Shown: positions 12,555 through 30,925, numbered from the stretch's first letter. The stretch: DNA of 34,494 nucleotides from an uncultured bacterium (GCA_965372715.1 CBDVDH010000003.1:1-34494); one strand, 5' to 3'. Notes: generated by a model not told the origin, from the sequence alone. Translations and numbers: made by a program.

Positions 12555-12558
12555 GGAT

Positions 12559-13557
12559 ATGATTACTCTGGGACACGGCGCCGGGGGGCGATTGAGCCGC
12601 GAGCTGATCGAGCAGGTCTTCGTCTCCGCGTTCGGCAATCCCGCGCTCGCCGCCCTTGACGACGGCGCCTGGGTCAAGGCCTCAGACCAAGACTTGTGCA
12701 TCACGACCGATGCGTTCGTCGTCAAGCCGCTCTTCTTCCCCGGCGGCGACATCGGCACGCTCGCAGTTTGTGGAACTGTCAACGACCTCGCGGTGATGGG
12801 GGCAAGGCCGATAGCTCTTTCCTGCTCCTTCGTGCTTGAGGAAGGTCTAAAACTCTCCATCCTGAAGAGAATCGCGGCGTCGATGGCCTCGGCGTCCAAA
12901 TCCGTCGGTGTCCCGATAGTTGCAGGCGACACAAAGGTGGTTGAAAAGGGCGCGGCCGACGGCGTCTTTATTACTACCACGGGAATCGGCCTGCGAATAG
13001 CCGACGTCAATCTCGGCCTCGAGCGCATCGCTCCGGGAGACAAAGTAATAATAACCGGAACCATCGCCGACCACGGAACCGCCGTCCTCCTGGCGCGGGA
13101 GGGCTTTCAAATAAGCTCGCAGATCGCCTCCGACTGCGCGCCCATTCACGGTCTTGTGGCAACGGCACTGACCTCTGGGGCGGGCGTCAGGTTCATGCGC
13201 GATCCGACCCGGGGCGGGCTCGCGACGGTCCTAAACGAGGTCGCCTCAGGCTGCCGGATGTGTATCAGCATAGAAGAAGCCAAACTCCCCATAAGAACTG
13301 ATGTGTCCGCGGCGCTTGAACTCCTGGGACTCGACCCCTTTTACGTGGCAAGTGAGGGCAGATGCGTAATTATAGTAGCGGCATCAGACGCAGATAGGCT
13401 TGTTGCGACGCTCAGACAGGACGATCAGGGCAGACAAAGCGCCGTTATCGGCCGCGTAGAAAAGTCGCCGGCAGGGATGGTCTCGCTCGAATCAAGCGTC
13501 GGCGGGCGGCGCATACTGCCCATGCTTAGCGCCGACCAGCTGCCGAGGATATGCTAG
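12559..13557 (+). CDS. hypE: Carbamoyl dehydratase HypE
   Basis: HGAGG, FFPGGDIG, GDTKVV, RDPTRGG and C-terminal PRIC. The track ORF at 12283 overlaps hypD, so the start is placed near ATG 12559. Confidence 0.96.
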   Translation: MITLGHGAGGRLSRELIEQVFVSAFGNPALAALDDGAWVKASDQDLCITTDAFVVKPLFFPGGDIGTLAVCGTVNDLAVMGARPIALSCSFVLEEGLKLSILKRIAASMASASKSVGVPIVAGDTKVVEKGAADGVFITTTGIGLRIADVNLGLERIAPGDKVIITGTIADHGTAVLLAREGFQISSQIASDCAPIHGLVATALTSGAGVRFMRDPTRGGLATVLNEVASGCRMCISIEEAKLPIRTDVSAALELLGLDPFYVASEGRCVIIVAASDADRLVATLRQDDQGRQSAVIGRVEKSPAGMVSLESSVGGRRILPMLSADQLPRIC

Positions 13558-13631
13558 GCGCTGGGAGGGTCCGCGCCTGTGCGGGATTCTGATGACCCCT
13601 ATACTGGGTCACGATTACGGGCCGGGCCTGT

Positions 13632-13705
13632 TGTAGGGGCGGTGCTTGCCCCGCCCTGTGTCCATTCGATGAATTGAGGAGGGCACAGCAAGCGGTGCCC
13701 CTACA
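13632..13705. repeat. Inverted GTAG-type REP doublet between hypE and hypA
   Basis: TGTAGGGGCGGTGCTTGCCCCGCCCT (13632-13657) ... AGGGCACAGCAAGCGGTGCCCCTACA (13680-13705); the ends TGTAGGGGC/GCCCCTACA are perfect inverted repeats. Confidence 0.75.
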
Positions 13706-13719
13706 GATGGGAGGTCTTT

Positions 13720-14061
13720 TTGCACGAGGCGAAGGTAGCAGCAGGGATTATCGAGACAGTCGAGCGCGTCGCCAGGGAGAACGGCGGCTCGCGGATAACG
13801 GGCATAAGGCTTCAGATAGGCGAGTTCACGTGTGTCCAGCCCGACACGCTGCGGTTCTGCCTCCAAACGCTGGCCGAAGGCACGATCGCGGACAGCGCGG
13901 CCATTTCCATATCAAGAATAAGAACCAGGGCCCTTTGCGCTGAATGCAATAACGAATTTGACGTTCACGAGATACAATTCCACTGCCCGACGTGCGCCTC
14001 GACCGACATCGAGGTCGTCTCGGGCAGGGAACTCATAATAGAATCAATTGAGGTAGAATAG
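13720..14061 (+). CDS. hypA: Hydrogenase nickel metallochaperone HypA
   Basis: MHE Ni motif (TTG start after GGAGG), CAEC and CPTC zinc motifs, GRELIIESIEVE. Confidence 0.95.
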   Translation: MHEAKVAAGIIETVERVARENGGSRITGIRLQIGEFTCVQPDTLRFCLQTLAEGTIADSAAISISRIRTRALCAECNNEFDVHEIQFHCPTCASTDIEVVSGRELIIESIEVE

Positions 14062-14070
14062 GAGAAGAAG

Positions 14071-14733
14071 ATGGAGATTAAGGTTTATGACCGGATATTG
14101 CAGGCGAACATCAGGATAGCGGAGCGCAACCGCGAACTCTTCAAAGACAAAGGCGTTACCGTCCTCAACCTGATCGGCGGCCCCGGTGTGGGCAAGACGG
14201 CCCTTCTGGAAGTGACAATCCCGCGGCTTCTTAAACGGTTTAAGGTCGGCGTCATCGAGGGCGACATCTACACGAGCCGCGATTCAGAGCGGATTCTCGC
14301 GCTGGGCGTCCCCGTTGTGCAGATAAACACCAAAGGCGCTTGCCACCTCGACGGCAACATGGTCGAGAGCGTCCTTTCAGACCTTCCGCTCGAGGAGCTC
14401 GACGTAGTCCTGATCGAGAACGTGGGCAACCTGGTCTGTCCCGCCGAGTTCGACGTCGGCGAGGACGCTAAGATAGTCGTCATGAGCGTTACCGACGGCG
14501 ACGACAAGCCGCAGAAATACCCGCTCATCTTCCGCCTCGCCAAGGCGCTCGTCATCACGAAGTCCGATATGCTCGAGCCTGCCGGCATCGACCTTGACCG
14601 CCTCAAGAGCGACGCCCTCTCCGTCAACCCGAACCTCAAAATCTTCCTCACCTCAGCAAGGAAGCATCAGGGCCTCGACAACTGGGTCGATTTCGTCGCC
14701 TCGCTGACGAGAACAAGTCCAAAAACCGCATGA
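14071..14733 (+). CDS. hypB: Hydrogenase nickel-insertion GTPase HypB (short form, no His-rich leader)
   Basis: GGPGVGKT, IEGD, GACHLD, IENVGNLVCPAEFD, DKPQKYP, TKSD. Confidence 0.96.
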   Translation: MEIKVYDRILQANIRIAERNRELFKDKGVTVLNLIGGPGVGKTALLEVTIPRLLKRFKVGVIEGDIYTSRDSERILALGVPVVQINTKGACHLDGNMVESVLSDLPLEELDVVLIENVGNLVCPAEFDVGEDAKIVVMSVTDGDDKPQKYPLIFRLAKALVITKSDMLEPAGIDLDRLKSDALSVNPNLKIFLTSARKHQGLDNWVDFVASLTRTSPKTA

Positions 14734-15855: not shown

Positions 15856-15869
15856 GAAAAAGCGTGTGA

Positions 15870-18163: not shown

Positions 18164-19186
18164 ATGAGTAAGAAGATCGTTTTCGCCAGCGACAAGGCAC
18201 TGCTGCACATCATAAGAGGTGTCGCAAAGGGGCGCGAGGTCTGGGGTCTCAAGAAAGATAACGACGAACTGCACGTTGTGAGGCCGGAGAACCTCGAGGA
18301 CCTGGACCAGGGTTCTTACCGCGCCGTTGAGCCGATCAAATCGGTTCTCTTCCCTGCCAGGGAAGACCTGGGCTCGTGGCCTGGGCCGGAGAAAGAAATA
18401 GAGGCGCCCGGAAGGCTCCTTGTCGGGTTCAAGGCGTGCGACCTTGGGACCTTCGACTTCCTCGACCACGTGTTCTTGGCGGGCGATTTTGTGGACCCAT
18501 TCTACAAAGCGGCCCGGGAGAATGCGTTCATCATTTCTTCGGACTGCACGGCGGCTAAGGAAGTCTGCTTCTGCACCTATCTGAGCCGCAAACCGCATCC
18601 CGAGAAGGGCTACGATCTAAACGTCTCTCCCATCGACGGCGGCAACCTGATCGAGGCGGGCAGTGAGGCGGGCGAGCAGGCGCTGAAGGAGTTCGGCGCG
18701 GGCCTTTCCGAGGCTGACAAGGAGCGGTTAGCAGCTAGGGATACCCGCCGAGCGGAGATGGTCGAGCTAGTGCAGGGCCAGGTGAAGGAGGCGGGCCTCT
18801 CGACGTGGGAAGACGCTTCCCACGATTTCGACAAGAAGTTCTCGCACCCTGTCTGGCATGAGCAGGCCGAGAAATGCGTGGAATGCGGGGCGTGTAACTT
18901 CATCTGCCCGACTTGCCACTGCTTCCTGCTCTGCGAGCTCGAGGAGAAGGAGGGCTTCAAGCGATTCAAGAACTGGGACGCGTGTTTATATCCGGCGTTC
19001 GCCAGGGTGGCTGGCGGAGCGAATCCTCGCAAGCGGAGGTCAGAGAGGCTGCGCAATCGGTTTGACAAGAAGTTCTCATTCTTCGTACAGGAGCTTGGGA
19101 TCCCCGCGTGTACCGGTTGTGGCAGATGCACTGAGGCCTGCGCCGGTGAGATTGACATAAAAGAGGTTCTGCGGAAGGTCTGCTGA
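18164..19186 (+). CDS. AsrA/sulfhydrogenase beta (HydB)-like iron-sulfur protein
   Basis: GFKACD, C....CFC, CVECGACNFICPTCHCF, WDAC and CTGCGRCTEAC. Start is ATG 18164 or TTG 18149. Confidence 0.88.
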   Translation: MSKKIVFASDKALLHIIRGVAKGREVWGLKKDNDELHVVRPENLEDLDQGSYRAVEPIKSVLFPAREDLGSWPGPEKEIEAPGRLLVGFKACDLGTFDFLDHVFLAGDFVDPFYKAARENAFIISSDCTAAKEVCFCTYLSRKPHPEKGYDLNVSPIDGGNLIEAGSEAGEQALKEFGAGLSEADKERLAARDTRRAEMVELVQGQVKEAGLSTWEDASHDFDKKFSHPVWHEQAEKCVECGACNFICPTCHCFLLCELEEKEGFKRFKNWDACLYPAFARVAGGANPRKRRSERLRNRFDKKFSFFVQELGIPACTGCGRCTEACAGEIDIKEVLRKVC

Positions 19187-20004
19187 TGCTAGATCCATAT
19201 CGTCCTGTTGCAGCAAAACTCGAGCGGGTCATCGATGAGACGCCGAACATCAAGACGTTTACCATAAAGCCGGAGCAGCCAATAGAGTTCAGAACCGGTC
19301 AGTTTGTCGAGCTGGCCCTTCCTGGGTTTGGCGAGGCGCCGTTCACGCCGTCCTCTTCTCCGTCCGTGTCCGAGCGGATGGACCTGACGATAATGGATGC
19401 TGGAAGCGTGACATCGAGGCTGCACAAGCTGAAGGCCGGGGCGATGGTAGGCGTCCGGGGGCCTTATGGCGCGTGTTACCCGCTGGACGAGTTCGCCGGC
19501 AAGACGGTCCTCATCGTCGGCGGCGGCGTCGGGCTTGCGCCTTTGCGGTCGCTTCTTTTCGCGCTGTTCGAGGACGCTAAAGGCCGGTTTGAGAGGATTG
19601 TCCTTTGCTACGGCGCTCGGTCGCCGCAGGACTTGGTTTATAAAGATAGCCTCAAGCGGTGGGGTGAGAAGAAGCAATTGGAGCTGCACGTCTCCGTCGA
19701 TGTGGGAGACGATACCTGGACGGGCAAGGTAGGCGTTGTCACTATTCTCTTGGACGACGTGCAAATAGACATTAAGAAGACCGCCGCGGTCGCGTGCGGG
19801 CCGCCGGTGATGATGTTCTTCGCGACCAAGAAGCTGCTGGACATGGGCTTTGCGGACAGCGACATTTACCTTTCCATGGAGAAGAACATGAGCTGCGGCT
19901 TGGGCAAATGCGGGCACTGCCGGTTAGGGCCTTATTATGCGTGTAAAGATGGGCCGGTATTTACGTATGACAAGATCAAAGGCTTGCCTGGGATTTGGGA
20001 CTGA
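19186..20004 (+). CDS. AsrB/sulfhydrogenase gamma (HydG)-like FAD/NAD(P)-binding [2Fe-2S] subunit
   Basis: GQFV...GEAPF, RGPYG, GGGVGLAPLRS, YGARSP, CGPPVMM and MSCGLGKCGHC...C.DGPVF. Confidence 0.9.
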   Translation: MLDPYRPVAAKLERVIDETPNIKTFTIKPEQPIEFRTGQFVELALPGFGEAPFTPSSSPSVSERMDLTIMDAGSVTSRLHKLKAGAMVGVRGPYGACYPLDEFAGKTVLIVGGGVGLAPLRSLLFALFEDAKGRFERIVLCYGARSPQDLVYKDSLKRWGEKKQLELHVSVDVGDDTWTGKVGVVTILLDDVQIDIKKTAAVACGPPVMMFFATKKLLDMGFADSDIYLSMEKNMSCGLGKCGHCRLGPYYACKDGPVFTYDKIKGLPGIWD

Positions 20005-20007
20005 GAA

Positions 20008-20502
20008 GTGAGTAAACGGCTCATCATAGACCTCGACAAGTGGCGAAGCACGCCGGACTGCACGGCCTCGTGCAGCTACTACTACCATCCTGACAACGAC
20101 GGTGTGCTCAATGTTGTCGAGCTCGCGTCGTTTGAGGTCTTCTGCCGCCGGTGTGAGCTGAAATCCTGCGTCAACGCGTGCCGCTACGACGCTCTGAAGA
20201 CGACAGAAGATGACGGCATGCCCAAGCGCTCGAATATGCTGTGCACGGGGTGCAAGTCGTGTTCGCAGGCCTGTCCGTTTGGGATCATTATTCCTACTAC
20301 GCTGCGATACATAGCGAGCATCTGCGACGAGTGCATCGACAGAAGGGAAGGTGTGCCTGAATGCGTTCAGACCTGTTCCTGCGATGCGATCAAATACGAG
20401 GAAGTCCCTGAGGAGGCGGAGGACGTGCACCTGATAGGCGACTTCATTGCGGCCAAGTCTCGGGCGTGGCAGAAGTCGGAGCCCCTGGAAGAGAAAAAAT
20501 GA
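20008..20502 (+). CDS. DmsB/HycB-like polyferredoxin electron-transfer subunit
   Basis: CRRC...CVNAC, CTGCKSCSQACPFG and CDEC...PECVQTC; first cluster motif is degenerate. Confidence 0.8.
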   Translation: MSKRLIIDLDKWRSTPDCTASCSYYYHPDNDGVLNVVELASFEVFCRRCELKSCVNACRYDALKTTEDDGMPKRSNMLCTGCKSCSQACPFGIIIPTTLRYIASICDECIDRREGVPECVQTCSCDAIKYEEVPEEAEDVHLIGDFIAAKSRAWQKSEPLEEKK

Positions 20503-21434
20503 ACGTCGGACACGCATTACTGCTTTTCCTGATATTCCCTGGCTTTCTTTTCACCGCCGTGCTAGGGCTTCTGGTCTCCTGGCTGGATAGAAAAGTCACG
20601 GCTCGCGTCCAGTGGCGCGTCGGGCCGCCGTTTTATCAAGGTTTCGCTGACTTCTTCAAGCTACTGGGCAAGGAGACGATTATCCCAGAGGGCGCTTCGC
20701 GCCTCGCTTTCCTGGGGGCGCCGCTTATGGGTGTGGCAGCAGTTACGCTGGCCTCGACAATCTTGATTGCGGGGATGGTCTGGCCGAATCAGAGCTTCGC
20801 CGGTGACCTGATCGTCGTTTTCTACCTCTTGGCCATCCCATCACTCGCGATAATTATTGGAGGCGCGGCATCGAAGAACGCGCTTGCCTCGCTGGGCGCA
20901 AGCCGGGAGATGAAGCTGGTGTTGAGTTACGAGCTGCCGCTTATTCTGGCGATTCTTGTGCCCGTGATACAGAGCGGCGGGCGGCTGCGCATCGGTGAGC
21001 TCGCTCAGTATCAGATGGCGCACGGCTCGTTCGCCTGGTCTCTGTCCGGGGTGATCGCGCTTCTGGTCTGCATTATGTGTCTTCAGGGGAAGCTCGGGCT
21101 TGTGCCGTTTGACCAGGCGGAGGCGGAGACGGAGATAATGGGCGGCGCGTTGATCGAGTATTCCGGGGCGCCGCTTGCGATGTTCAAGCTTCAGAAGGCG
21201 ATGATGCTGGTCGCGATGCCGGTTTTCATACTTGCGGTGCTTTGGGGCGGCTTGGGCAATACAGTTTCTTCTTTCATACTGGGGCTCATCAAGTATCTTG
21301 TCTTGATTGTGCTCGTTACTCTGATCAGAAACACCAACCCCAGGGTAAGGATCGACCACGTGATGAAGTTCTTCTGGGGCCTAGTGAGTGTATTCGCCGT
21401 GCTGGCGGTTATTTTGGCCGTGTTGGGGGTCTGA
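20499..21434 (+). CDS. Membrane anchor subunit, NuoH/HycD/MbhM family
   Basis: DRKVTARVQWRVGPP, DFFKLLGKE, GASRE, SYE and PFDQAEAETEIMGG..EYSG; ATGA overlap with the upstream stop. Confidence 0.92.
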   Translation: MNVGHALLLFLIFPGFLFTAVLGLLVSWLDRKVTARVQWRVGPPFYQGFADFFKLLGKETIIPEGASRLAFLGAPLMGVAAVTLASTILIAGMVWPNQSFAGDLIVVFYLLAIPSLAIIIGGAASKNALASLGASREMKLVLSYELPLILAILVPVIQSGGRLRIGELAQYQMAHGSFAWSLSGVIALLVCIMCLQGKLGLVPFDQAEAETEIMGGALIEYSGAPLAMFKLQKAMMLVAMPVFILAVLWGGLGNTVSSFILGLIKYLVLIVLVTLIRNTNPRVRIDHVMKFFWGLVSVFAVLAVILAVLGV

Positions 21435-21435
21435 C

Positions 21436-21858
21436 GTGAGCTTACTCTTGAAGGCACTCACGAAATCACTCTGGGTATTCCACGCCTGCTCTGGTTCGTG
21501 CAATAACTGCGACATAGAGATTCTGGACCTCTTGACGCCGCGGTTCGACGTGGAGCGCTTTGGGGTCCTTTTGGTGGGCAGCGCGAGACACGCGGATGCC
21601 CTTCTGGTCACTGGGGCGATGAACAGGAAATCGGCCAAGAGGATAAGAACCGTATATGAGCAGACGGCCAAGCCTTGCCTGGTCATTGCGTTCGGGGCGT
21701 GCGCGCTGGGTCAGGGCATTTTTCGGGATAGCTACCCGATCACGGTTCCGCTGGATGAGATCATCCCAGTTGATGTTTATATTCCGGGCTGTCCGCCCAA
21801 ACCTGAGGCCATGATCGCCGGAATAGTCAAGGGTCTTGAGAAGCTAAAGGGACTGTAA
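21436..21858 (+). CDS. Group 4 hydrogenase small subunit (NuoB/EchC/MbhJ family)
   Basis: GSCNNCDIE (CxxC rather than the complex I CC), RHADALLVTG, GAC and IPGCPPKP; GTG directly after the upstream stop. Confidence 0.92.
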   Translation: MSLLLKALTKSLWVFHACSGSCNNCDIEILDLLTPRFDVERFGVLLVGSARHADALLVTGAMNRKSAKRIRTVYEQTAKPCLVIAFGACALGQGIFRDSYPITVPLDEIIPVDVYIPGCPPKPEAMIAGIVKGLEKLKGL

Positions 21859-21859
21859 G

Positions 21860-22321
21860 GTGCAAGAAAGCGTTCTGGACAAGCTGATTGAGGACCTGGG
21901 GCCAAAGCTGAAAAACGTCTTCAAGAAGTCCCCACGAAGGGTCTATCTTAACGTTGAGCCAGACGGTCTATTGGACGTCGCCAGATACATTCTCAAGATG
22001 GATGGCGTTCGATACGCCATCGCTACTGGGATCGACACTCCGGCGGGTTTCGAGGTTTTGCACCACTTCGATTTCGACAAGCATAATATGATCGTAAGCG
22101 TTCGTGTGTTGGCCGATCGTGACAATCCGATTCTTCCGTCTGTGGCCACGATAACAAAGGCGGCGGAGTGGATAGAGCGTGAGATGCACGATATGTTGGG
22201 AATAAACTTCGAGGACCATCCTGACATGCGGCGTCTTCTTCTGCCTGAGGATTGGCCCGACGATGTCTTTCCGCTCAGACGCGGCAAACCCTGGGAAGGT
22301 AAGGTACCCAAGAAGATATGA
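21860..22321 (+). CDS. NuoC/EchD/MbhK-family subunit
   Basis: TGIDT, A.WIEREMHDMLGINFEDHPDMRRLLLP.DW..FPLR. Confidence 0.92.
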   Translation: MQESVLDKLIEDLGPKLKNVFKKSPRRVYLNVEPDGLLDVARYILKMDGVRYAIATGIDTPAGFEVLHHFDFDKHNMIVSVRVLADRDNPILPSVATITKAAEWIEREMHDMLGINFEDHPDMRRLLLPEDWPDDVFPLRRGKPWEGKVPKKI

Positions 22322-23502
22322 AATCTGTCATCCCAATCGGGCCATATCATCCGCTCCAGGAGGAGCCGGAGCTGTTCCGACTCTACGTCGATGGCGAGAC
22401 GGTCGTGGACATAGACATCGAGATCGGCTGGAACCACCGAGGCATCGAGAAGATCTGCGAGTCGAAGAGCTTCGACCAGGTAACATTCGTAATCGAGCGG
22501 ATATGCGGGATATGCTCGACCTCCCACCCGATCGCCTACGTTCAGGCGGTCGAGGACGTTGGCGGGGTCGAGGTCCCCGAAAGGGCCAAGTATATCCGGA
22601 CCGTAATCGGCGAGCTGGAGCGCATCCATAGCCACCTCTTGTGGGCCGGGCTTGCGGGACATTTCCTTGGATACAATACTGTCTTCATGTGGGCCTGGAA
22701 GTATCGCGAACCTGTCTTAGACATCTTTGAGGAGCTGACCGGCAACCGGAACCACTACGCAATGATGAAGCCGGGCGGCGTGCGAAGGGACCTGGACGAG
22801 AGCAAATTCGAGAGCGTGGCAAAGCGGCTGGACGAGCTGGTGCCCAAGCTGGACCTTCTGGCCGGCGCGTTTCTGGACGATCCGGTCCTTCACGCGAGGC
22901 TCAAGGGCATTGGGATTTTGACGCCGGAGAAAGCGCTCGAATATGCCGCGCTGGGGCCGACGGTGCGCGCCTCAGGCATCGCCAAGGACATCAGAAGGGA
23001 TCACCCCCACGCCGCTTACGACAAGATCGACTGGAAAGTGATCACGTTGCCGGAGGGCGATGTCTTCGCGAAAGCAATCGTCAGGGTTCTTGAGATGTAC
23101 GAGTCCGTCAAAATCATCAAGCAATGCCTGGAGAAGATGCCCCAAGGCGAGATCGACGCCAAGATTGAGGAGGTGCCGCCAGGCGAGGGCATTGGCCATT
23201 ACGAGGCGCCTCGTGGCGAGACTTTCCACTACGTTCGTTCGGACGGCACGAACACCCCCGTTCGGCACAAGGTCAGGGCGCCAACCTTCATGAACCTTCC
23301 GACGGCAAAGGCAACCGTGGTCGGCGGGACCATAGCGGACGCTACAATAATTCTGGCCGCGATTGACCCGTGCTACTGCTGCACGGAGCGGATGGCGATG
23401 ACGTTTGACTACAAGAGCAAGAGACCTATTATGACGGGCATGGACCTCGTCAAACTCTCTCAGGAAAAGACGGCCAGGTTGCGTAAGGAGATGGGAGTGT
23501 GA
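22318..23502 (+). CDS. Group 4 [NiFe]-hydrogenase large subunit
   Basis: GPYHP, HRGIEK, L1 ERICGICS, ELERIHSH, EAPRGE and L2 DPCYCCTER followed by a ~36 aa extension. Confidence 0.95.
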   Translation: MKSVIPIGPYHPLQEEPELFRLYVDGETVVDIDIEIGWNHRGIEKICESKSFDQVTFVIERICGICSTSHPIAYVQAVEDVGGVEVPERAKYIRTVIGELERIHSHLLWAGLAGHFLGYNTVFMWAWKYREPVLDIFEELTGNRNHYAMMKPGGVRRDLDESKFESVAKRLDELVPKLDLLAGAFLDDPVLHARLKGIGILTPEKALEYAALGPTVRASGIAKDIRRDHPHAAYDKIDWKVITLPEGDVFAKAIVRVLEMYESVKIIKQCLEKMPQGEIDAKIEEVPPGEGIGHYEAPRGETFHYVRSDGTNTPVRHKVRAPTFMNLPTAKATVVGGTIADATIILAAIDPCYCCTERMAMTFDYKSKRPIMTGMDLVKLSQEKTARLRKEMGV

Positions 23503-25376
23503 GCGGCGGCGTTCTCTGGTATCCGATTCTCATCCCGCTTGTCGCCGGCATAGTCTGCCTCGTGCTGCCCAGAAAGCTCTCAGTCCTTACGAAGCTACTC
23601 GCCTTCGTTGCGACCGGCTTGGCGTTTGGATACTCCATTTTCCTGTTCACAGCTGGCAAGTTGAGCTACGCTTGGCCGAGCACGCGCTTCGCCCGGTCCT
23701 GGGCCGGCACGCAGCTGCTAGCCTGCGACCAGCTGACTGGCTTCTTATCGCTCGCGGCCGGTTTCTTCGGCTTTGCTATTCTTCTTTATTCGCTCGGCTT
23801 CCTAGCGAGAGAGAACCACAGCCCAAGCGCCTACTACGGCAACTACCTGCTGGCCCTGGGGGCCACATTCGGCGCGCTGCTATCCACCAACCTCATCCTG
23901 CTCCTGATGTTCTGGGGCTTCCTGGGCATACCGTTCTTCTTACTCATCAATATGGGCTCGGAGAAGGCCGCCGCCGCCGCCAAGAAGACGTTCATCATCC
24001 TGGGCGGAAGCGATTCGCTGCTCATTATGGGTGTTGCGATTGTGTGGGTGCTCACGGGCAGCCTCGACATGGGCAATATCACGATTGCAACCACGTCTGG
24101 CGCAGGAACGTTGGCCTATATCTTTTTTGTCGTTGCGGCATTCGCCAAGGCCGGCGCCGTGCCGGTGCAATCCTGGGTCCCAGACGCCGCGGAGGCCTCG
24201 CCAGCGCCGGTCGCCGCATTCTTGCCAGCCTCCTTGGACAAGCTCTTGGGCATCTACCTCTTTGCACGGGCCACACTCAACCTCTTTGAGGTCACGCCTG
24301 GCTTGAGATCGCTAATGATGATTCTGGGAGCTATCACCATTATCGCCGCGGTTATGATGGCATTGGTTCAGCACAATCTCAGGCGCCTCTTGGGCTTTCA
24401 CGCCGTAAGTCAGGTCGGCTACATGGTGCTGGGTATTGCGACCGGGACGCTTGTTGGCGTGGCTGGCGGGCTGTTCCACATGCTGAACCATGCTCTTTAT
24501 AAATCGTGTCTCTTCTTGACCGCTGGGGCGGCAGAGCAAAGGAGCAAAAGCGGGGAGCTGTCGGACATGGGTGGCCTGGCGAAGGCAATGCCGCTCACGT
24601 TCTTCTCCGCGGTAGTTGCTGCGCTTGCCATCTCGGGAGTTCCGCCACTGAACGGCTTCTACTCCAAATGGATGGTCTATCAAGGCATTGTCGAATTCGG
24701 CAAGAGGGGCGGATTGCTGTGGGTATTCCTGCTTGTTGCAGCCATGTTCGGAAGCGCACTGACGCTTGCTAGCTTCGTCAAAGTGCTTCATTCTGTCTTT
24801 CTGGGAAGAACTAAGGAGGGCGAGGCCGAGGTCAAAAGGGGGCCTACGCCCAACTTCGCAATGAAGCTGCCCATGGTTGTCATCGCCCTAATCTGCGTAG
24901 TGTTCGGCGTTTGGGCATACAAGGTTCCAATCATAAACTTCATCAACCCTGGACTTGCGGGGCTGGGTCTTTCTGAGGCTTCAGAGAACCTGCTCGGGTT
25001 CTGGGCGCCGGGCCTTGCAACCATACTGCTCATTGTGGCGCTCGTGGTTGGCGCCTTGATCTATGTATTCACAAAAGCGCTCAAGGTTCGCGAGGATGTA
25101 CCATACGTTGGCGGCGAGGTGGGAGCCAGGGCAAAGGAGTATCAGTTCTCGGGCCTGGACTTCTACAAGACCGTGCCCAAGATCGGTCTGCTTTCGGGCC
25201 TCTATCGTGCTGCCGAGGCCAAATGGCTTGACTTGTATGAAGTAAGTCGGCGCCTCGCCTTTTACATAACCGGGATACTAAAGACGGCGCACTCAGGAAT
25301 ACTCCTCTCGTATGTATCATGGTGCGTTCTGGGACTTGTTGTGCTCATCTGGTTCTTGGTCTGGCGAGCATGGTGA
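23499..25376 (+). CDS. Antiporter-like subunit (NuoL/MrpA-type with long C-terminal tail)
   Basis: KAGAVP..SWVPDA, LDKLLG, FHAVSQVGY, HALYKSCLFL.AG, GVPPLNGFYSKW and C-terminal AHSG...Y plus TM. FWG replaces the usual FWE. Confidence 0.9.
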   Translation: MSGGVLWYPILIPLVAGIVCLVLPRKLSVLTKLLAFVATGLAFGYSIFLFTAGKLSYAWPSTRFARSWAGTQLLACDQLTGFLSLAAGFFGFAILLYSLGFLARENHSPSAYYGNYLLALGATFGALLSTNLILLLMFWGFLGIPFFLLINMGSEKAAAAAKKTFIILGGSDSLLIMGVAIVWVLTGSLDMGNITIATTSGAGTLAYIFFVVAAFAKAGAVPVQSWVPDAAEASPAPVAAFLPASLDKLLGIYLFARATLNLFEVTPGLRSLMMILGAITIIAAVMMALVQHNLRRLLGFHAVSQVGYMVLGIATGTLVGVAGGLFHMLNHALYKSCLFLTAGAAEQRSKSGELSDMGGLAKAMPLTFFSAVVAALAISGVPPLNGFYSKWMVYQGIVEFGKRGGLLWVFLLVAAMFGSALTLASFVKVLHSVFLGRTKEGEAEVKRGPTPNFAMKLPMVVIALICVVFGVWAYKVPIINFINPGLAGLGLSEASENLLGFWAPGLATILLIVALVVGALIYVFTKALKVREDVPYVGGEVGARAKEYQFSGLDFYKTVPKIGLLSGLYRAAEAKWLDLYEVSRRLAFYITGILKTAHSGILLSYVSWCVLGLVVLIWFLVWRAW

Positions 25377-25384
25377 GGTAGAGG

Positions 25385-25963
25385 ATGTTTGATCTCATAA
25401 CGCTGCTCCTGCTTTTCATGATTATCGCCTCGGTTATTGCCCTTTTCACCAATGACCTTCTGTCGGCGGTGATTGCCCTGGGGGCCGTCGGGTTCGGCTC
25501 AACCGTGCTGTTTCTGCTCCTCAAAGCCCCGGACGTGGTCCCAACCCACATAGTGGTTGAAGTGCTTACCCTAATAATCCTGATCAGAGCCGTAGTCGGG
25601 CGCGAAACCGTGACTTTTACGGGGATCAGAACAATACCCGTGGCGGCGGCCTCGGGCGTTCTGGTTCTCATATTCCTGACGTTCGCGGTGATGAGCTTCT
25701 CAGACATGCCAGAGTTTGGCACGCCTTCAATGATAACCAATATCGACGCCCCTTCCAGAACCTATATCGCAGAAGGGCTCAAGGAGACCGGCGCCGCGAA
25801 TGCCGTGACGGCAGTGCTTCTGGACTACCGAGCCTACGATACCCTCGGCGAGGCGACCATACTGTTCACTGCGATCATAGGCGCTATGGTGCTTCTTAGG
25901 CGCAGGAGCAGAAAGAATCGGCAAGGCCCGCCGGACAGCGAGCAGGGAGGCAACGAGAAATGA
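25385..25963 (+). CDS. DUF4040/MbhD-MbhE fusion (MrpA C-terminal/MrpB N-terminal like)
   Basis: APDV...VE followed by NAVTAVLLDYRAYDTLGE. Confidence 0.85.
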   Translation: MFDLITLLLLFMIIASVIALFTNDLLSAVIALGAVGFGSTVLFLLLKAPDVVPTHIVVEVLTLIILIRAVVGRETVTFTGIRTIPVAAASGVLVLIFLTFAVMSFSDMPEFGTPSMITNIDAPSRTYIAEGLKETGAANAVTAVLLDYRAYDTLGEATILFTAIIGAMVLLRRRSRKNRQGPPDSEQGGNEK

Positions 25964-26439
25964 ACGGCGGCCTCAGCATAATAGTTAAGACCGCGACCCG
26001 CTGGGTGGTTGATTTCATTTTTCTGTATGGCCTCTTCTTAATCGCATACGGGCACCTCACACCTGGAGGTGGTTTTCCGGGAGGCGTAACCATCGCCAGC
26101 GCATACGTTTTAATTATGCTGGCGTTTGGCAAGGAGAAGCTCTATCAGAACTTAGCGTTCAAGACTGCCTCTCGACTGGACTGCGTGGGGGCGCTGATGT
26201 TCCTGGCAGTGGCTTTGCTGGGACTTGCCTATGCTGGTCCTTTCTTCGTCAATTTCATCGAGAAGCGCGTCCCTGGGGCCGACTTCCGACTCTTCTCCGC
26301 CGGCGTCATACCAATCTGCAACATCGCTATTGCGATCAAAGTAGCTGCCTCGCTCGTTCTAGTCGCTGTGGTTCTTTCGGCGGTGAGAGTCGTGCCAGGC
26401 GGCACCGATGAGCAGTTCCGCGCCGAGGAGGAGGAGTGA
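25960..26439 (+). CDS. MrpB/MnhB/MbhF-family subunit
   Basis: GHLTPGGGFPGG motif; four TM segments. Confidence 0.88.
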   Translation: MNGGLSIIVKTATRWVVDFIFLYGLFLIAYGHLTPGGGFPGGVTIASAYVLIMLAFGKEKLYQNLAFKTASRLDCVGALMFLAVALLGLAYAGPFFVNFIEKRVPGADFRLFSAGVIPICNIAIAIKVAASLVLVAVVLSAVRVVPGGTDEQFRAEEEE

Positions 26440-26786
26440 TGATCTATATCCTCTGCATAATCCTCTTCTGCGTCGGCCTTCTGGGCGTTGTTACACGGCG
26501 CAACCTGATCAAGATCATACTTGGCGTCAAGATCATCGAGTATGCGGTGAATCTGATGTTGATACTAGTCGGTTACAGAGCCGGAGGCATAGCGCCGATT
26601 CGTGATAGGAGCATGTCTGCCGCAACATTCGCTCAGAGCTCGGTGGACCCATTACCGCAGGCGATGGTTCTGACGGCCATAGTCATCGGGCTTGGCGTCC
26701 TTGCGCTGCTGACCGCGATCGCAATCAGGCTGTACCACAAATACGGGACTTACGACATAACCAGAATAAGAAGGCTTAGGGGCTAG
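26436..26786 (+). CDS. MrpC/MbhG-family subunit
   Basis: NLIKIILG and DPLPQAMVLTAIVIG. Confidence 0.92.
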   Translation: MMIYILCIILFCVGLLGVVTRRNLIKIILGVKIIEYAVNLMLILVGYRAGGIAPIRDRSMSAATFAQSSVDPLPQAMVLTAIVIGLGVLALLTAIAIRLYHKYGTYDITRIRRLRG

Positions 26787-26799
26787 GAGGAGCAAGCAG

Positions 26800-28326
26800 A
26801 TGGCATTGGTTCCGATAATGGTCGCGCTGCCGCTCGGCCTTGCCTTTATCTTCCCTCTTTTGCCCAAGCGGAGAATTCGTCTCTCCGATACGCTTGCTGT
26901 TCTGGGCTCAGCGGTCCTTGTTGTCCTATCGCTCTTTACGATAGGCAAGAGCTGCGTCTATGAAATCGGAGGCTGGCGACCACCGATCGGGATCAATCTA
27001 GTGCTGGACGGATTCTCAAGCCTTATGGTTATCGTTGTCGCGGTAGTAAGCTTCGCTGTGATCCTGTTCTCCTGTCGCTACATGGACACATACACGCAGC
27101 GACCCAAGTTCTACTGTCTCTTCATGCTGATGATTGCTGGGATGAATGGCGTCATTCTCACCGGGGATTTGTTTAATCTCTTCGTGTTTCTGGAGATAGC
27201 CGCGCTTTCATCATACGCGCTAGTTGCATTCGGGTGCCAGCACGAGGAGCTCGAGGCCTCTTTCAAGTATGGCATACTGGGGAGCGTCGCTTCGAGCTTC
27301 GTGTTGCTCAGCATCGCGCTGCTATACGCCCAGTTCGGGACGGTGAACATGGCGCACCTTGCAGAAAAGATCTCGATTGCAGGGGCCGCCGGGCCAACCC
27401 CCCCGCTTGTTACTTTCTGCCTGATGCTCTTCATTGCAGGGCTCGGCTTGAAGGCAGCGCTAGTGCCATTCCACGCCTGGCTTCCTGACGCACATCCGTC
27501 CGCCCCGGCGCCCATCTCGGCCATGCTCTCTGGCGTCTTGATCAAGGCCATCGGCGTCTATGCGCTTGTCCGTATTATTTTCAACGTGTTTGGTCTGGAC
27601 TCAAAGCTGTCCTACGCGCTCATGATTCTCGGGACGCTTTCGATGGTTATTGGCGTGTTCATGGCGATCGGCCAGTGGGATTACAAGCGGCTCTTGGCCT
27701 ATCACAGCATCTCGCAGATCGGCTACGTCATACTCGGTATCGGCCTGGGAACGCCGCTTGGCATCCTCGGCGGAATCTTTCATCTCGCTAACCACGCCGT
27801 ATTTAAGTCGCTGCTCTTCTTGACCGCCGGCGCAGTCGAGCACAACACCGGCACGCGCCAGCTGGACAAGATGGGCGGCCTCCACAAGAAAATGCCAACA
27901 ACCGGTGCAACGTCGCTTGTCGCATCGATGTCAATCGCCGGTGTTCCGCCGTTCAATGGCTTCTTCAGCAAGCTTATCATCATCGTAGCCTGCGTCGAGG
28001 CGGGACGATATGGCTTTGCGGCATGGGCCGTCGTGGTCAGTGTTATGACGCTGGCATCGTTTATGAAGGTTCAGAGATATGGATTCTACGGGAAACTGAA
28101 GGAGCAGTTCTCCAAGCTCCGTGAGGTTCCGGCCACTATGCAGGCCTCGATGATATTCCTCGCGGTCCTTTGTCTGGCGATGAGCCTCATGGTTCTTCCT
28201 TCCGTCAGAGCGCGATTGCTGCAACCTGCCAATCAGGCTTTGCAGCAAGGGCTGAAGTACTCCGAGACAGTGCTTTCAGAGAAGTGGGCGGCGGCGCCTG
28301 ATCATCCGGCGAGGCTACAAGAATGA
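26800..28326 (+). CDS. MrpD/MbhH-family antiporter subunit
   Basis: GGWRPPIGI, DLFNLFVFLEI, KAALVPFHAWLPDAH, LIKA, KRLLAYHSISQIGY and GFFSK. Confidence 0.92.
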   Translation: MALVPIMVALPLGLAFIFPLLPKRRIRLSDTLAVLGSAVLVVLSLFTIGKSCVYEIGGWRPPIGINLVLDGFSSLMVIVVAVVSFAVILFSCRYMDTYTQRPKFYCLFMLMIAGMNGVILTGDLFNLFVFLEIAALSSYALVAFGCQHEELEASFKYGILGSVASSFVLLSIALLYAQFGTVNMAHLAEKISIAGAAGPTPPLVTFCLMLFIAGLGLKAALVPFHAWLPDAHPSAPAPISAMLSGVLIKAIGVYALVRIIFNVFGLDSKLSYALMILGTLSMVIGVFMAIGQWDYKRLLAYHSISQIGYVILGIGLGTPLGILGGIFHLANHAVFKSLLFLTAGAVEHNTGTRQLDKMGGLHKKMPTTGATSLVASMSIAGVPPFNGFFSKLIIIVACVEAGRYGFAAWAVVVSVMTLASFMKVQRYGFYGKLKEQFSKLREVPATMQASMIFLAVLCLAMSLMVLPSVRARLLQPANQALQQGLKYSETVLSEKWAAAPDHPARLQE

Positions 28327-28829
28327 GAAGAATAGCGGTCTTCGTAGTATGTTACATTATTTGGTGCATCTACGTCTGGCCGTATAGCGCCACTTACGGC
28401 TGGGACGGCCAGAGCCTGATCGTGGGCCTCATAGCGTCATTTCTGGTCGCAGTCCTGCTCTCTGACACGCTGGCGAGGCACCCGGTCAAGTTCCTGCACC
28501 CCCACCGATACTTCTGGGCACTCGTGTATGCCCCCGTGCTCTTGTACCACTGCCTCAAGGCAAACTTCCACGTCGCATACATCGTGCTGCACCCCCAGGT
28601 GCCGATATTACCCGGAATTGTCAGGGTGAAAACCTCGCTCAAGACCGAGACCGCTCGAACCGCCCTTGCCAACTCCATCACCCTCACGCCGGGGACCCTT
28701 ACGGTCGATATCAAGGACGACGGGACGTTATTTGTCCACTGGCTTGTAGTTGAGGCCGAAAAGGACGAAGATGCGACAAGGCTCATCGTTGGCAAGTTCG
28801 AGGGCTTGCTCAAGAAGATATTCGAATAG
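28323..28829 (+). CDS. MrpE/MbhA-family subunit
   Basis: PGIV, LANSITLTPGTLTVD and LFVHW. Confidence 0.92.
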   Translation: MRRIAVFVVCYIIWCIYVWPYSATYGWDGQSLIVGLIASFLVAVLLSDTLARHPVKFLHPHRYFWALVYAPVLLYHCLKANFHVAYIVLHPQVPILPGIVRVKTSLKTETARTALANSITLTPGTLTVDIKDDGTLFVHWLVVEAEKDEDATRLIVGKFEGLLKKIFE

Positions 28830-28838
28830 GTGTAATCG

Positions 28839-29111
28839 ATGACAGAAAGCTCATTTCTCTATTTCGGGCTTGGCGTGTTGGTCGTCTGCGCATACCTTTG
28901 CCTCTATCGGATGGGTAAGGGGCCAACAGCGCCGGACAGGGCGGTTGCGCTTGATATGCTGGGCGTCATATTCGTCGGGTTTTGCGGTCTGCTCGCGATC
29001 TTAACCGGGCGCGATTTTTACGTTTATCTGGCCATTGCCTGGGCGCTCCTTGCTTTTATAGGCACGCTTGCATTGGCCAAGTTCCTCGAGGGGAGAGGCT
29101 TTGATGAGTGA
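28839..29111 (+). CDS. MrpF/MbhB-family subunit
   Basis: GPTAPDRAVALD and FIGTLALAKFL. Confidence 0.92.
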   Translation: MTESSFLYFGLGVLVVCAYLCLYRMGKGPTAPDRAVALDMLGVIFVGFCGLLAILTGRDFYVYLAIAWALLAFIGTLALAKFLEGRGFDE

Positions 29112-29448
29112 GACGGCAGCCTTCATCGTAATCGGTTTGGGCCTGGCTTTTGACGTCTTCGGGTGCGTCGGGCTGTTCCGGCTGCCTGATGTGTACACCA
29201 GGCTTCAGGCATCCACCAAGTGCGTAACTCTGGGAACCTGCCTCATCCTGTTTGGCGTCTTCCTATACTCCGGCTTCTCTGGAATGGGCGGCAAAGCAAT
29301 CATTTGTCTGGTCTTCGTCTTGATAACGCTGCCCACCGGCGCCCACGCGCTGGCCAGGGGAGCATACAAATATGGTATAGGCATGAAGAAACCCTACCTC
29401 CTTGACAAGTATGGCGAGGAGGAGGATAAGGGGATGCGCAAGCGATGA
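29104..29448 (+). CDS. MrpG/MbhC-family subunit
   Basis: GLFRLPDVYTRLQASTK and PTGAHALARG; ATG 29104 overlaps the mrpF-like stop. Confidence 0.92.
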   Translation: MSETAAFIVIGLGLAFDVFGCVGLFRLPDVYTRLQASTKCVTLGTCLILFGVFLYSGFSGMGGKAIICLVFVLITLPTGAHALARGAYKYGIGMKKPYLLDKYGEEEDKGMRKR

Positions 29449-30038
29449 GGCAGCCCAAATGGCGCGAGCTGAAGGAAGCGATGAGAGCGCTCTTCACCGG
29501 CCCATACACGAGCAAGTTCCCCGCCGAACCGCCGGTCCTCCCTGACGCCTTCCGAGGCGCGCCTCGCTTCGATTCGGACGAATGCGTCGGTTGCGGCGCC
29601 TGCGTCAACGTATGTCCTCCGGGCGCGATCATTCAGAAGGATGACAAGGACTCAAAGATGCGCCAGATCACCATCCTCTATGACCGGTGCATCGTGTGCG
29701 GGCAGTGCCACGCCAATTGCCTCACCGAAACTGGCGTCAACATGTCTCACGATTGGGACTTGGTTACCACCAACCGTGACGATCTGAAAGAGACGGTCGA
29801 AAAGGAGCTTTTGCTTTGCGAGACGTGCGACGAGATCATCGGAGCGCTCGACCACGTCCGATGGGTAGCCAAGCGCCTCGGGCCTCTCGCCTTTGCCAAC
29901 CCCACATTGTTCCTGACGGCGCTTCAGGACCTCTCACTGAGCCAAAAGCCGCCCAAGCCGGTCGAGCCGTTGAGGAGAGGCGACAAGCTCAGAATCCTCT
30001 GCCCCAACTGCCGCAACGTGACCTCATTCCTCGCCTAG
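29445..30038 (+). CDS. NuoI/EchF/MbhN-family 2x[4Fe-4S] subunit with extra C-terminal Cys pairs
   Basis: YT..FP...FRG, CVGCGACVNVCP, CIVCGQCHANC, plus CETC and CPNC. Confidence 0.9.
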   Translation: MRQPKWRELKEAMRALFTGPYTSKFPAEPPVLPDAFRGAPRFDSDECVGCGACVNVCPPGAIIQKDDKDSKMRQITILYDRCIVCGQCHANCLTETGVNMSHDWDLVTTNRDDLKETVEKELLLCETCDEIIGALDHVRWVAKRLGPLAFANPTLFLTALQDLSLSQKPPKPVEPLRRGDKLRILCPNCRNVTSFLA

Positions 30039-30072
30039 CCCATATTATTCATAAACTGCGGATGAGATGAGA

Positions 30073-30182: not shown

Positions 30183-30242
30183 CCTACCGGAGTCACGACC
30201 TCGAATTATTCGGACTAGCCGGGATGCCCCGCCTGAGGCTTC

Positions 30243-30752
30243 CTACCGTGCTGCGTCTTGCACGAGCACAGATTTAAGCACAGAGCACGCGTCCTCTATG
30301 GCCGCCTTGATTTGCGGAGATTGGGCCTCGCCAAACGCTACCGTCCCCGGCTGAGCGGCCAGCACCACGGTCTTTGCGCCGCATTCACTCATCAGGAACT
30401 GCTCAATTAACGAAAGCGACGGCGCGTGCGTCCCCAGACAATCGCCGGATAATTGGTCAATCTTGAGAAGTCTCAGTTCGCCGAGGCTCCCATCGAAACT
30501 GGCCGCGTCAACGATTATCACGAGCGCCGGACCAAGCTTCACGATAGGTCCGAGAAAATCCTCGGGCACGGTTCCGGCGTCAAACGCCCTATCCTGAATA
30601 AGCCGCGATATTCTATTGGCGACCTCAGGGCCGAAGCCGTCGTCGCCCCGCAAAGTATTGCCGATCCCAAGGACAACAACCTTATCCGCGCCTACCCGTG
30701 AGACCTCGGCCTTGAGCTCTTGTCTCAGCCGATGATGTTTATCTTCTGTCAT
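30243..30752 (-). CDS. hycI: Hydrogenase maturation endopeptidase, HycI type
   Basis: LGIGNTLRGDDGFG, GTVPE, IVDAA and THAPSL; start uncertain among ATGs up to 30776. Confidence 0.88.
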   Translation of the reverse strand: MTEDKHHRLRQELKAEVSRVGADKVVVLGIGNTLRGDDGFGPEVANRISRLIQDRAFDAGTVPEDFLGPIVKLGPALVIIVDAASFDGSLGELRLLKIDQLSGDCLGTHAPSLSLIEQFLMSECGAKTVVLAAQPGTVAFGEAQSPQIKAAIEDACSVLKSVLVQDAAR

Positions 30753-30925
30753 GGCTTCTACCATCCCGTGAACCATAGAACGGTCCCCTCAGAACCTCAA
30801 TACCCGGCGTGGCTCCCAATAATCACATTGGCGGCAAGGGACATGGTGGGGCGAACACGTTCTTCCGCTGCCCAAAGGTGATGAGTTTGACAGGGGTCGG
30901 TCTGCGAGTTGCACCCATTGGGTGA

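What the first reader, a model, noticed from the sequence alone, without database searches (positions are those of the whole stretch)
18164..30038. Putative NAD(P)-linked, ion-translocating [NiFe]-hydrogenase: AsrAB/HydBG diaphorase module co-encoded with a group 4 hydrogenase and Mrp module
Seen: 16 co-directional genes with overlapping or near-abutting stops and starts, in the order AsrA-like, AsrB-like, polyferredoxin, NuoH, B, C, NiFe large subunit, NuoL-like, MbhDE, MrpB, C, D, E, F, G, NuoI-like. Known: HydB/HydG normally serve soluble group 3b hydrogenases and AsrA/B serve AsrC; characterised group 4 enzymes (Ech, Mbh, Hyc, Coo) use ferredoxin, formate or CO. No AsrC, group 3b subunits, FDH or CODH is in the window. 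Inference: one membrane complex couples NAD(P)(H) and H2 (standard potentials about -320 and -414 mV) to H+/Na+ translocation. It could conserve energy from H2-driven NAD(P)+ reduction, or use an ion gradient to make H2 from NAD(P)H. I recall similar clusters in uncultured anaerobes labelled group 4g, so the layout may not be unique, but I know of no biochemical characterisation.
Basis: partly seen in the sequence, partly recalled or inferred. Interest (0 to 1): 0.85.

Follow-up and report, generated by a model that had tools for sequence, protein, structure and literature searches.

The report
Hun-type NADH-linked membrane hydrogenase operon
This is an intact copy of an already described but never purified 16-gene membrane hydrogenase of uncultured anaerobes; its built-in flavoprotein looks wired to burn NADH rather than ferredoxin alone, which published models do not assume and a bench test could settle.

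Summary
The 16-gene cluster is real and intact. It is a new copy of the 'Hun' supercomplex (hunA-P; Glass et al., bioRxiv 536078): same order, same CGIC/CYCC Ni motifs. The layout is conserved in 56 of 57 informative loci from many phyla, and this scan already met it in at least 8 other genomes. So the layout is not new. HunB keeps an invariant FNR-type NAD site with the NADH-selecting Asp (58/58). HunA is predicted to dock on HunP/HunC (0.90 vs best control 0.07). G000 has no AsrC or group 3 partner. In 121 Omnitrophota genomes Hun almost never co-occurs with other hydrogenases (1 of 19). Best reading: an NADH-oxidising, H2-evolving valve with weak or reversed ion coupling. Nothing is shown biochemically.

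The parts
18164..19186 (+). hunA: HydB/AsrA-like FeS subunit; predicted connector between the flavoprotein and the hydrogenase arm
   Evidence: PF17179; best PDB match SHI beta 9NEZ_B E 2e-39; 15 Cys invariant in 56/56; predicted interface with HunP/HunC
19186..20004 (+). hunB: HydG/AsrB-like FNR-family flavoprotein (FAD, [2Fe-2S], NAD-binding domain); predicted NADH-specific
   Evidence: PF00970+PF00175+PF10418; SHI gamma 9NEZ_C E 5e-50; GxGxxP, C237/242/245/253 and D172 invariant in 58/58; D172 aligns with the Asp of NADH-nitrate reductase and NqrF
20008..20502 (+). hunC: HycB/CooF-like polyferredoxin; three intact [4Fe-4S] motifs here, the first (distal) motif degenerate (W12, T15)
   Evidence: PF13247; ligand table
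20499..21434 (+). hunD: NuoH/MbhM membrane anchor
   Evidence: PF00146; start chosen from the -4 overlap
21436..21858 (+). hunE: NuoB-like hydrogenase small subunit, one [4Fe-4S]
   Evidence: PF01058; C22, C25, C89, C119 invariant in 69/69
21860..22321 (+). hunF: NuoC/MbhK-like
   Evidence: PF00329
22318..23502 (+). hunG: group 4 [NiFe] large subunit, L1 CGIC, L2 CYCC, cleavable C-terminal extension
   Evidence: PF00346+PF00374; best PDB match MbhL 6CFW E 3.5e-92; four Ni Cys invariant in 78/78, CYCC in 69/78
23499..25376 (+). hunH: NuoL/MbsH'-like antiporter subunit with C-terminal extension; TM5 Glu replaced by Gly140; K217, D247-K248, H327, K390 and D172 invariant
   Evidence: PF00361; G140 in 62/67, E in 5/67; aligned to MbhH
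25385..25963 (+). hunI: MbhD+MbhE (MrpA C-terminal part)
   Evidence: PF13244+PF20501
25960..26439 (+). hunJ: MrpB
   Evidence: PF04039
26436..26786 (+). hunK: MrpC/NuoK
   Evidence: PF00420
26800..28326 (+). hunL: MrpD/MbhH antiporter subunit with the full canonical axis (E132, K218, K249, H328, K391)
   Evidence: PF00361; all five invariant in 59/59
28323..28829 (+). hunM: MrpE
   Evidence: PF01899
28839..29111 (+). hunN: MrpF
   Evidence: PF04066
29104..29448 (+). hunO: MrpG
   Evidence: PF03334
29445..30038 (+). hunP: NuoI/HycF-like 2x[4Fe-4S] with a HycF-type extra Cys quartet; C-terminal part (143-197) is the predicted HunA dock
   Evidence: NF009053 HycF best hit; Cys conservation; interface list
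30243..30776 (-). hycI-like maturation protease, convergent
   Evidence: PF01750, TIGR00072 above cut-off; homologues flank 34 related loci
8869..14733 (+). hypF, hypC, hypD, hypE, hypA, hypB: [NiFe] maturation genes
   Evidence: NCBIfam hits above cut-off

Best explanation
The operon encodes Hun, a complex I-like membrane enzyme that works mainly as an NADH:H+ oxidoreductase. Inferred electron path: NADH -> FAD and [2Fe-2S] in HunB -> [4Fe-4S] clusters of HunA -> the two invariant clusters of HunC -> HunP -> HunE -> NiFe site of HunG -> H2. It is the cell's H2 valve for fermentative NADH, alongside Rnf and a Na+ ATP synthase. The membrane arm (HunD, H, L and the Mrp Na module) moves H+/Na+. 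Because NADH alone cannot pay for net ion export at ordinary H2 pressures, the coupling is most likely weakened or opposite in net sign to MBH, so that ion influx helps, or at least does not oppose, H2 release. Shown here: gene set, motifs, conservation, co-occurrence. Predicted: the HunA dock and NADH specificity. Inferred only: direction, ion identity and stoichiometry.
For: HunB FNR motifs and the NADH-type Asp invariant in 58/58. That Asp aligns with the Asp of NADH-nitrate reductase, NqrF, PyrK and NfnA, while NADPH-using SHI gamma has T-R there; D239T and S920D switch cofactor in this family (PMC5817062 table). hunA+hunB lie upstream of hunG in 56 of 57 loci long enough to tell. HunA docks on HunP/HunC: 0.90, best of 3 controls 0.07, runs agree at least 88%, partner pLDDT at least 86; the mark was reached by 116 of 157 solved and 2 of 215 mismatched pairs, counts only roughly valid with my alignments. 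The two HunC clusters at that dock are invariant (65/65); the two distal ones are both lost in 9/65. Those same 9 loci carry a divergent rex gene, and Rex-like boxes precede hunA in 21 of 53 regions vs 4 of 1060 shuffles. G000: Hun is the only NiFe large subunit, no PF01077, the only FeFe hit is a sensory-type protein. Omnitrophota sample: Hun 19/121, FeFe group-A-like 52/121, group-3-like NiFe 21/121, overlap with Hun 1; 6 of the 19 show neither RnfD nor any NuoF/RnfC-type domain.
Against: No biochemical or expression data. NADH to H2 is +18 kJ/mol at 1 bar, about 0 at 100 Pa, and reaches the cost of one ion only near 0.1 Pa, so a large pumping arm is hard to justify without reversed coupling, which has no precedent I found. 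HunL keeps a complete MBH-type pumping axis. 43 of 65 HunC keep all four clusters, leaving a free distal end that could take ferredoxin; a NIL-ferredoxin gene sits directly upstream in 4 of 55 loci. Rex also represses the ferredoxin-dependent Ech in C. bescii, the box resembles a CRP/FNR site (recalled), and this window has no box (5 mismatches). Exclusivity fails outside Omnitrophota: Hun genomes G042 and G043 have group-A-like FeFe enzymes. Kin are not independent, and any sole H2 valve would show exclusivity.
Confidence: 0.45

Rival explanations
1. Published model (Glass et al.; HydDB group 4g): Hun is an MBH-like ferredoxin:H+ oxidoreductase that exports Na+/H+. HunAB is a relay or a side branch (overflow to NAD+, or regulatory).
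For: Fd (-450 mV) to H2 yields -18 to -30 kJ/mol at 1 kPa to 10 Pa, enough for one ion, with the known MBH polarity. G000 has three POR-family genes and an AOR, which make reduced ferredoxin, and a Na+-motif ATP synthase. Distal HunC clusters are intact in 43/65.
Against: It does not explain why an NAD-binding domain and its specificity Asp are invariant in 58/58, nor why the putative free end of HunC is dispensable in 9/65 while the HunA-facing clusters never are. An ungated Fd to NAD+ branch would short-circuit Rnf (inference).
Confidence: 0.2
2. Confurcating pump: NADH (via HunB) and reduced ferredoxin (via distal HunC or HunA) are oxidised together, and the averaged potential drives H2 evolution with ion export in the MBH direction.
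For: A mean donor of about -365 mV gives -13 kJ per H2 at 10 Pa and -19 at 1 Pa. Hun replaces group-A-like FeFe enzymes, many of them presumably bifurcating, in Omnitrophota. The predicted wire is branched at HunC.
Against: HunB's flavin is of the HydG/PyrK/NfnA type, not known as a bifurcation site (recalled). The branch is lost in 9/65 homologues and half lost in this copy.
Confidence: 0.15
3. H2-uptake enzyme: H2:NAD+ oxidoreductase. Either it conserves energy at high H2 (first reader; needs reversed polarity), or it uses ion influx to scavenge sub-Pa H2 (MBH polarity run backwards).
For: With MBH polarity, ion-driven H2 to NAD+ needs no new mechanism and suits H2-poor subsurface habitats (inference). 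Williams et al. list a Wood-Ljungdahl pathway in Ca. Gorgyraea, which has an Mrp-linked group 4g enzyme (I did not check that it is Hun).
Against: Rex-type control in 21 of 53 loci would switch the operon on when NADH is already high. The hosts are mostly described as fermenters needing a sink. No CODH was found in G000; its PF03063 hit is Hcp.
Confidence: 0.12
4. HunAB is co-located but serves another enzyme (AsrC, Hdr, group 3b) and is not part of the membrane complex.
For: HydB/G-like pairs do serve such partners elsewhere (established knowledge); G000 is 96% complete, so a partner could be unassembled; one GltD-like protein with an FlpD domain exists.
Against: Overlapping genes, 56/57 linkage, predicted dock that collapses to 0.01 when HunP is replaced, no AsrC or group 3 large subunit found.
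Confidence: 0.04

Closest known systems
Hun [NiFe] hydrogenase-Na+/H+ antiporter supercomplex, hunA-P (Glass et al., bioRxiv 10.1101/536078; section 8 read whole)
   Same: 16 genes in the same order and roles, HunAB AsrA/B-like without AsrC, CGIC-CYCC motifs, optional molybdopterin-domain gene between hunB and hunC in some relatives, similar host range.
   Different: Nothing structural found. They propose ferredoxin as donor; the evidence here favours NADH. This copy has a degenerate first HunC cluster motif.
'Enigmatic' group 4 hydrogenase of Saganbacteria RX5A (PMC6349859; passages and Supplementary Note 5 passages) and 'Mbh-Mrp-oxidoreductase type' of Elusimicrobia (bioRxiv 10.1101/765248; passages)
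   Different: RX5A has the extra molybdopterin-oxidoreductase-like gene, absent here; no donor was assigned or tested.
Pyrococcus furiosus MBH (group 4d, PDB 6CFW) and MBS (6U8Y)
   Same: Best solved match of HunG; NuoH/B/C/D/I core plus Mrp Na module; two antiporter-like subunits as listed for MBS.
   Different: MBH/MBS take ferredoxin and have no HycB-like or diaphorase subunits; MBH has one antiporter-like subunit; HunH lacks the TM5 Glu kept in MbsH/H' and MbhH.
P. furiosus soluble hydrogenase I beta/gamma (group 3b, PDB 9NEZ)
   Same: Closest solved relatives of HunA and HunB.
   Different: Soluble, NADPH-using, partners a group 3 dimer; lacks the Asp at HunB 172.
E. coli formate hydrogenlyase (group 4a, PDB 7Z0S; bioRxiv 2022.03.21.484881, passages)
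   Same: HycB- and HycF-like relay, including HycF's extra Cys quartet.
   Different: Input is FdhF at HycB's distal end; no Mrp Na module, no diaphorase.

Membership tests
Hun supercomplex | 16 genes hunA-P in the order AsrA, AsrB, 4Fe-4S, NuoH, B, C, large subunit, NuoL-like, Mrp subunits, NuoI | tested here: met
   against the description (figure not seen; order inferred from the module lettering HunEFGP, HunDHILK, HunIJKLMNO)
Hun supercomplex | HunG L1/L2 motifs CGIC and CYCC | tested here: met
   C63-G-I-C66, C352-Y-C-C355
Hun supercomplex | AsrC absent | tested here: met
   none in the window; no PF01077 in G000, 96% complete
Hun supercomplex | Clusters with the reference HunG (RXG63129) in a tree | not tested
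   reference sequence not fetched; homologues at 62-76% identity come from phyla Glass lists (Omnitrophota, Bacteroidota)
Group 4 [NiFe] hydrogenase (not Ehr/Mbx) | Four Ni-binding Cys, small-subunit cluster Cys, maturation genes | tested here: met
   78/78 and 69/69 invariant; hypA-F and hycI in the window
HydDB group 4g | Assignment by the HydDB classifier | not testable with these tools
   HydDB not available; Glass reports 4g for HunG but distant from other 4g; the Ca. Saelkia MAG listed as 4g carries the full Hun order (L004)
HydDB group 4g | Ferredoxin-coupled H2 evolution (putative in HydDB) | not testable with these tools
   needs biochemistry; HydDB itself says undetermined
MBH (group 4d) | 14 subunits, one antiporter-like subunit, no NAD module | tested here: not met
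   two antiporter-like subunits plus HunABC
Anaerobic sulfite reductase AsrABC | AsrC siroheme subunit; AsrA/B above family cut-offs | tested here: not met
   TIGR02910 125 vs 323 bits, TIGR02911 209 vs 289; no PF01077
Group 3b sulfhydrogenase | Group 3 large and small subunits with HydB/G | tested here: not met
   only one PF00374 match in G000, HunG itself
FNR-family NADH diaphorase (HunB) | FAD domain, GxGxxP and CGP motifs, [2Fe-2S] Cys, Asp at the 2'-ribose site | tested here: met
   activity itself untested

The most novel reading that the evidence does not exclude
Hun is a complex I-family machine run with the opposite net coupling to MBH: Na+/H+ influx drives uphill H2 release from NADH (reverse electron transport through a diaphorase unrelated to NuoEFG). 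The loss of the TM5 Glu in HunH, seen in every 16-gene locus and in none of the 7 checkable loci that keep the molybdopterin-like input subunit, would mark the rewiring.
Probability: 0.2. Interest if true: 0.85.

Novelty: new member of a known kind. Interest (0 to 1): 0.42.

Why it matters
Metabolic models treat it as a ferredoxin-driven Na+ pump. If its donor is NADH, the ATP and H2 budgets drawn for these abundant anaerobes change, and the complex I superfamily gains an independently recruited NADH module and possibly a natural example of reversed ion coupling. The specific predictions (HunB D172, HunP 143-197 dock, HunH G140) make the question testable in a cultured host; Glass et al. report hun in Kosmotoga isolates.

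Tried and rejected
1) Categorically new system: rejected, the layout is published. 2) Ehr/Mbx without nickel: rejected, all ligands and maturases present. 3) Hidden partner in G000: PF01077 none; PF00374 only HunG; PF00384 one weak NuoG-like hit; PF03063 is Hcp; the other two PF10418 proteins are PyrK and NfnA in their own operons. My tblastn at 1e-5 missed those two, so it is not sensitive enough to prove absence. 4) Rex box in this window: best site has 5 mismatches, not found, though the genome has rex. 5) PF00374 at E 1e-22 over the Omnitrophota sample gave 0 of 121: threshold too strict, replaced by NF040828. 6) Promoter/terminator scan at chance level (5 vs 6.2; 16 vs 12.6); no Rfam match. 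7) Expression: no RNA holder listed, which says nothing either way. 8) The regex for the HunH TM5 motif matched nothing; redone from alignments. 9) The HunG tree is the quick version, midpoint-rooted; no origin or transfer direction is claimed. 10) Literature for biochemistry or an explicit NADH assignment of Hun: none found in searches (swamped by the surname Hung), 71, 72, 86, 115; no SHI structure paper found. The library misses most subscription papers; bioRxiv supplements and all figures were not seen, and 17 of 29 supplement files of PMC6349859 were not searched.
Full report
Observation. The sixteen ORFs are present, intact and packed with gaps of -8 to +13 nt. The large subunit carries both Ni motifs and a C-terminal extension; hypFCDEAB and a HycI-like protease are in the window, so this is a true hydrogenase and not an Ehr/Mbx complex. 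The window lies on contig C3 of a 3.56 Mb genome, 96% complete. I did not determine its taxon.

What it is. Glass et al. (bioRxiv 10.1101/536078; passages, section 8 whole; figures and supplement not seen) named this 16-gene operon Hun. They give HunAB as AsrA/B-like without AsrC, HunG as HydDB group 4g with CGIC-CYCC motifs, and an optional molybdopterin-domain gene between hunB and hunC. All of that fits. They propose ferredoxin as donor; the term NADP does not occur in their main text. Matheus Carnevali et al. (PMC6349859; passages, supplement passages) described the Saganbacteria version and noted the FAD/NAD-binding domain of the AsrB-like protein and a NuoE/F-like role. An Elusimicrobia preprint calls it 'Mbh-Mrp-oxidoreductase type', function unknown (passages). 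HydDB lists 4g as undetermined (passages). Earlier notes of this scan list look-alike stretches in 70 genomes and show eight that reached the same identification; these are leads, not support.

Conservation. Of the 80, 57 have at least 4.2 kb upstream of hunG; 56 of those show hunA and hunB there, and the exception (L049) has hunB at the edge of the fetched DNA. The 23 shorter loci were left out. Within the host's own family only the same-genus genome has a Hun-level match; five others do not with this query.

Is HunB a working NAD module? In 58 sequences the GxGxxP, RGP, CGP glycine-proline and four [2Fe-2S] cysteines are invariant or nearly so, and so is D172. D172 aligns with the Asp ending the corresponding strand in NADH-nitrate reductase, NqrF, PyrK and NfnA; NADPH-using SHI gamma has T-R instead. 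A review table lists D239T (cytochrome b5 reductase) and S920D (nitrate reductase) as cofactor switches (PMC5817062, passages); that these are the same position as D172 is my inference from the nitrate reductase alignment and recall. The prediction is NADH.

Is it wired in? A three-chain model of HunC, HunP and HunA scored 0.90 against a best control of 0.07, and 0.01 when HunP was replaced; runs agreed in at least 88% of contacts, partner pLDDT at least 86. The mark was reached by 116 of 157 solved complexes and 2 of 215 mismatched pairs, counts that hold only roughly with my own alignments. It supports binding and does not show it. The interface joins HunA's cluster loops (235-247, 321-329) to HunP 143-197 and HunC 47-53. 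The PDB sequence search gave HunA only SHI beta and one weak hit, so I know of no solved HydB-NuoI complex it could copy, but memory cannot be excluded. No cofactor distances were measured. HunC's two clusters near this dock are intact in 65 of 65; all four are intact in 43; both others are lost in 9; this copy has lost one. In FHL, HycB carries four clusters and binds FdhF (passages); that the lost clusters are the FdhF-facing ones is recalled from DmsB-type proteins.

Genome context. G000 has one NiFe large subunit, no siroheme reductase domain, one FeFe-family protein with degenerate motifs beside kinase-like and NuoEFG-like genes (sensory type, my reading), NfnAB, RnfDGEA plus RnfC, three POR-family genes, one AOR and an F-type ATP synthase whose c subunit has the Na+ motif (motif recalled). 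In 121 Omnitrophota genomes (120 drawn evenly plus the Hun-positive centre), Hun was in 19, group-A-like FeFe in 52, group-3-like NiFe in 21; one genome had Hun plus another, against about 10 expected (Fisher p 1e-6 overstates, since kin are not independent). Williams et al. made the same remark on 14 MAGs, where the alternatives were 3b, 3d and A3 (PMC8542988, passages). Twelve of the 19 have RnfD; six have neither RnfD nor a NuoF/RnfC domain, though each has 1-2 further PF10418 genes I did not resolve. Against this, the two Hun genomes from Cloacimonadota and Bacteroidales that I checked both have group-A-like FeFe enzymes.

Regulation. Following a lead from earlier notes, I counted Rex-like boxes (consensus seen in the abstract listing of PMC2883068): at most 2 mismatches in 21 of 53 upstream regions vs 4 of 1060 shuffles, but not in this window. 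A divergent rex gene abuts hunA in 9 of 55 loci, the same nine that lost both distal HunC clusters; they fall in two Bacteroidales subclades of a quick tree, so this is about two events. Rex also controls ferredoxin-dependent Ech (PMC6391272, passages), so it hints at H2 release under NADH excess but does not name the donor.

Membrane arm and energetics. HunL keeps the full charged axis (59/59). HunH has Gly for the TM5 Glu in 62 of 67 full-length sequences, while D172, K217, D247, K248, H327 and K390 are invariant. With partial sequences, Glu is kept in 9 loci: all 7 checkable loci that have the extra molybdopterin-like gene, and 2 whose upstream DNA is missing (two further 'E' rows are HunL-like paralogues and were dropped). 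These form two clades, so the correlation is suggestive only. The Glu/Lys pair is described as a coupling element in MBH, where H2 production powers pumping of about one ion per 2 electrons (PMC8679088, passages; PMC8165549, passages). With standard potentials, NADH to H2 costs +18 kJ/mol at 1 bar, +1 at 100 Pa, -5 at 10 Pa and -16 at 0.1 Pa; one ion costs 14.5-17.4. So with MBH polarity an NADH-only Hun can pump only at sub-Pa H2, or run backwards as an ion-driven H2 scavenger.

Verdict. A real, intact Hun operon: a new member of a known but uncharacterised kind. I put about 0.85 on HunB being a functional pyridine-nucleotide input or output of the complex, and 0.45 on NADH-oxidising H2 evolution with weak or reversed coupling as the main role; ferredoxin-driven pumping 0.2, confurcation 0.15, H2 uptake 0.12. 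Interest 0.42: the layout would not surprise a specialist, but the donor and the coupling sign are open and now have residue-level tests.

Noticed in passing
L092:8625-9587 (-) (G000 C54): F-type ATP synthase operon has, beside a normal Na+-motif c subunit, a 320-aa c subunit of four fused hairpins, only two of which keep the ion-binding Glu; could lower ions per ATP, as hybrid c-rings do (recalled).
   Followed up: partly
window 14893-17663: A REase-ARP nuclease and a GmrSD-HNH gene at lower GC (0.49-0.50 vs about 0.58) sit between hypB and hunA; likely an inserted defence islet. The same-genus locus L001 has different DNA upstream of hunA.
   Followed up: partly
window about 30072-30186; also 800-1280 and 30800-31200: Dispersed inverted-repeat elements with roughly 20-50 matches elsewhere in the genome; the one between hunP and hycI folds into a long hairpin (z -4.0) and may act as a terminator. 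An IS200-like transposase gene lies beside the rnf genes.
   Followed up: partly
L028, L030, L033, L036, L048, L058, L065, L073: Variant Hun operons with a 475-574 aa degenerate molybdopterin-oxidoreductase-like gene between hunB and hunC; every checkable one keeps the HunH TM5 Glu.
   Followed up: partly
L066:5205-5660, L075, L078: A 151-aa stand-alone cyclic-nucleotide-binding domain gene is inserted between hunB and hunC in three Bacteroidales loci.
   Followed up: no
L002:4106-5550: A DNA methylase and a second ORF are inserted between hunB and hunC in a Planctomycetota locus.
   Followed up: no
L082:6537-15647 and L087:13-10716 (G000 C5): Redox cluster: sensory-type FeFe protein with kinase-like neighbours, NuoE/F/G-like trio without H-cluster, NfnAB, a second NuoF + HoxU-like pair and a glutamate-synthase-like FMN domain protein.
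   Followed up: partly
window 31342-34426: Molybdate/tungstate-type ABC permease and ATPase (substrate from recall of the TOBE-domain family) plus moeA; the only clear pterin enzyme found in G000 is one AOR.
   Followed up: no
L024:1-3600: A soluble NiFe hydrogenase set (HydG-like, small and large subunit ORFs, protease) lies directly upstream of a Hun operon in a Verrucomicrobia MAG, an exception to exclusivity.
   Followed up: no
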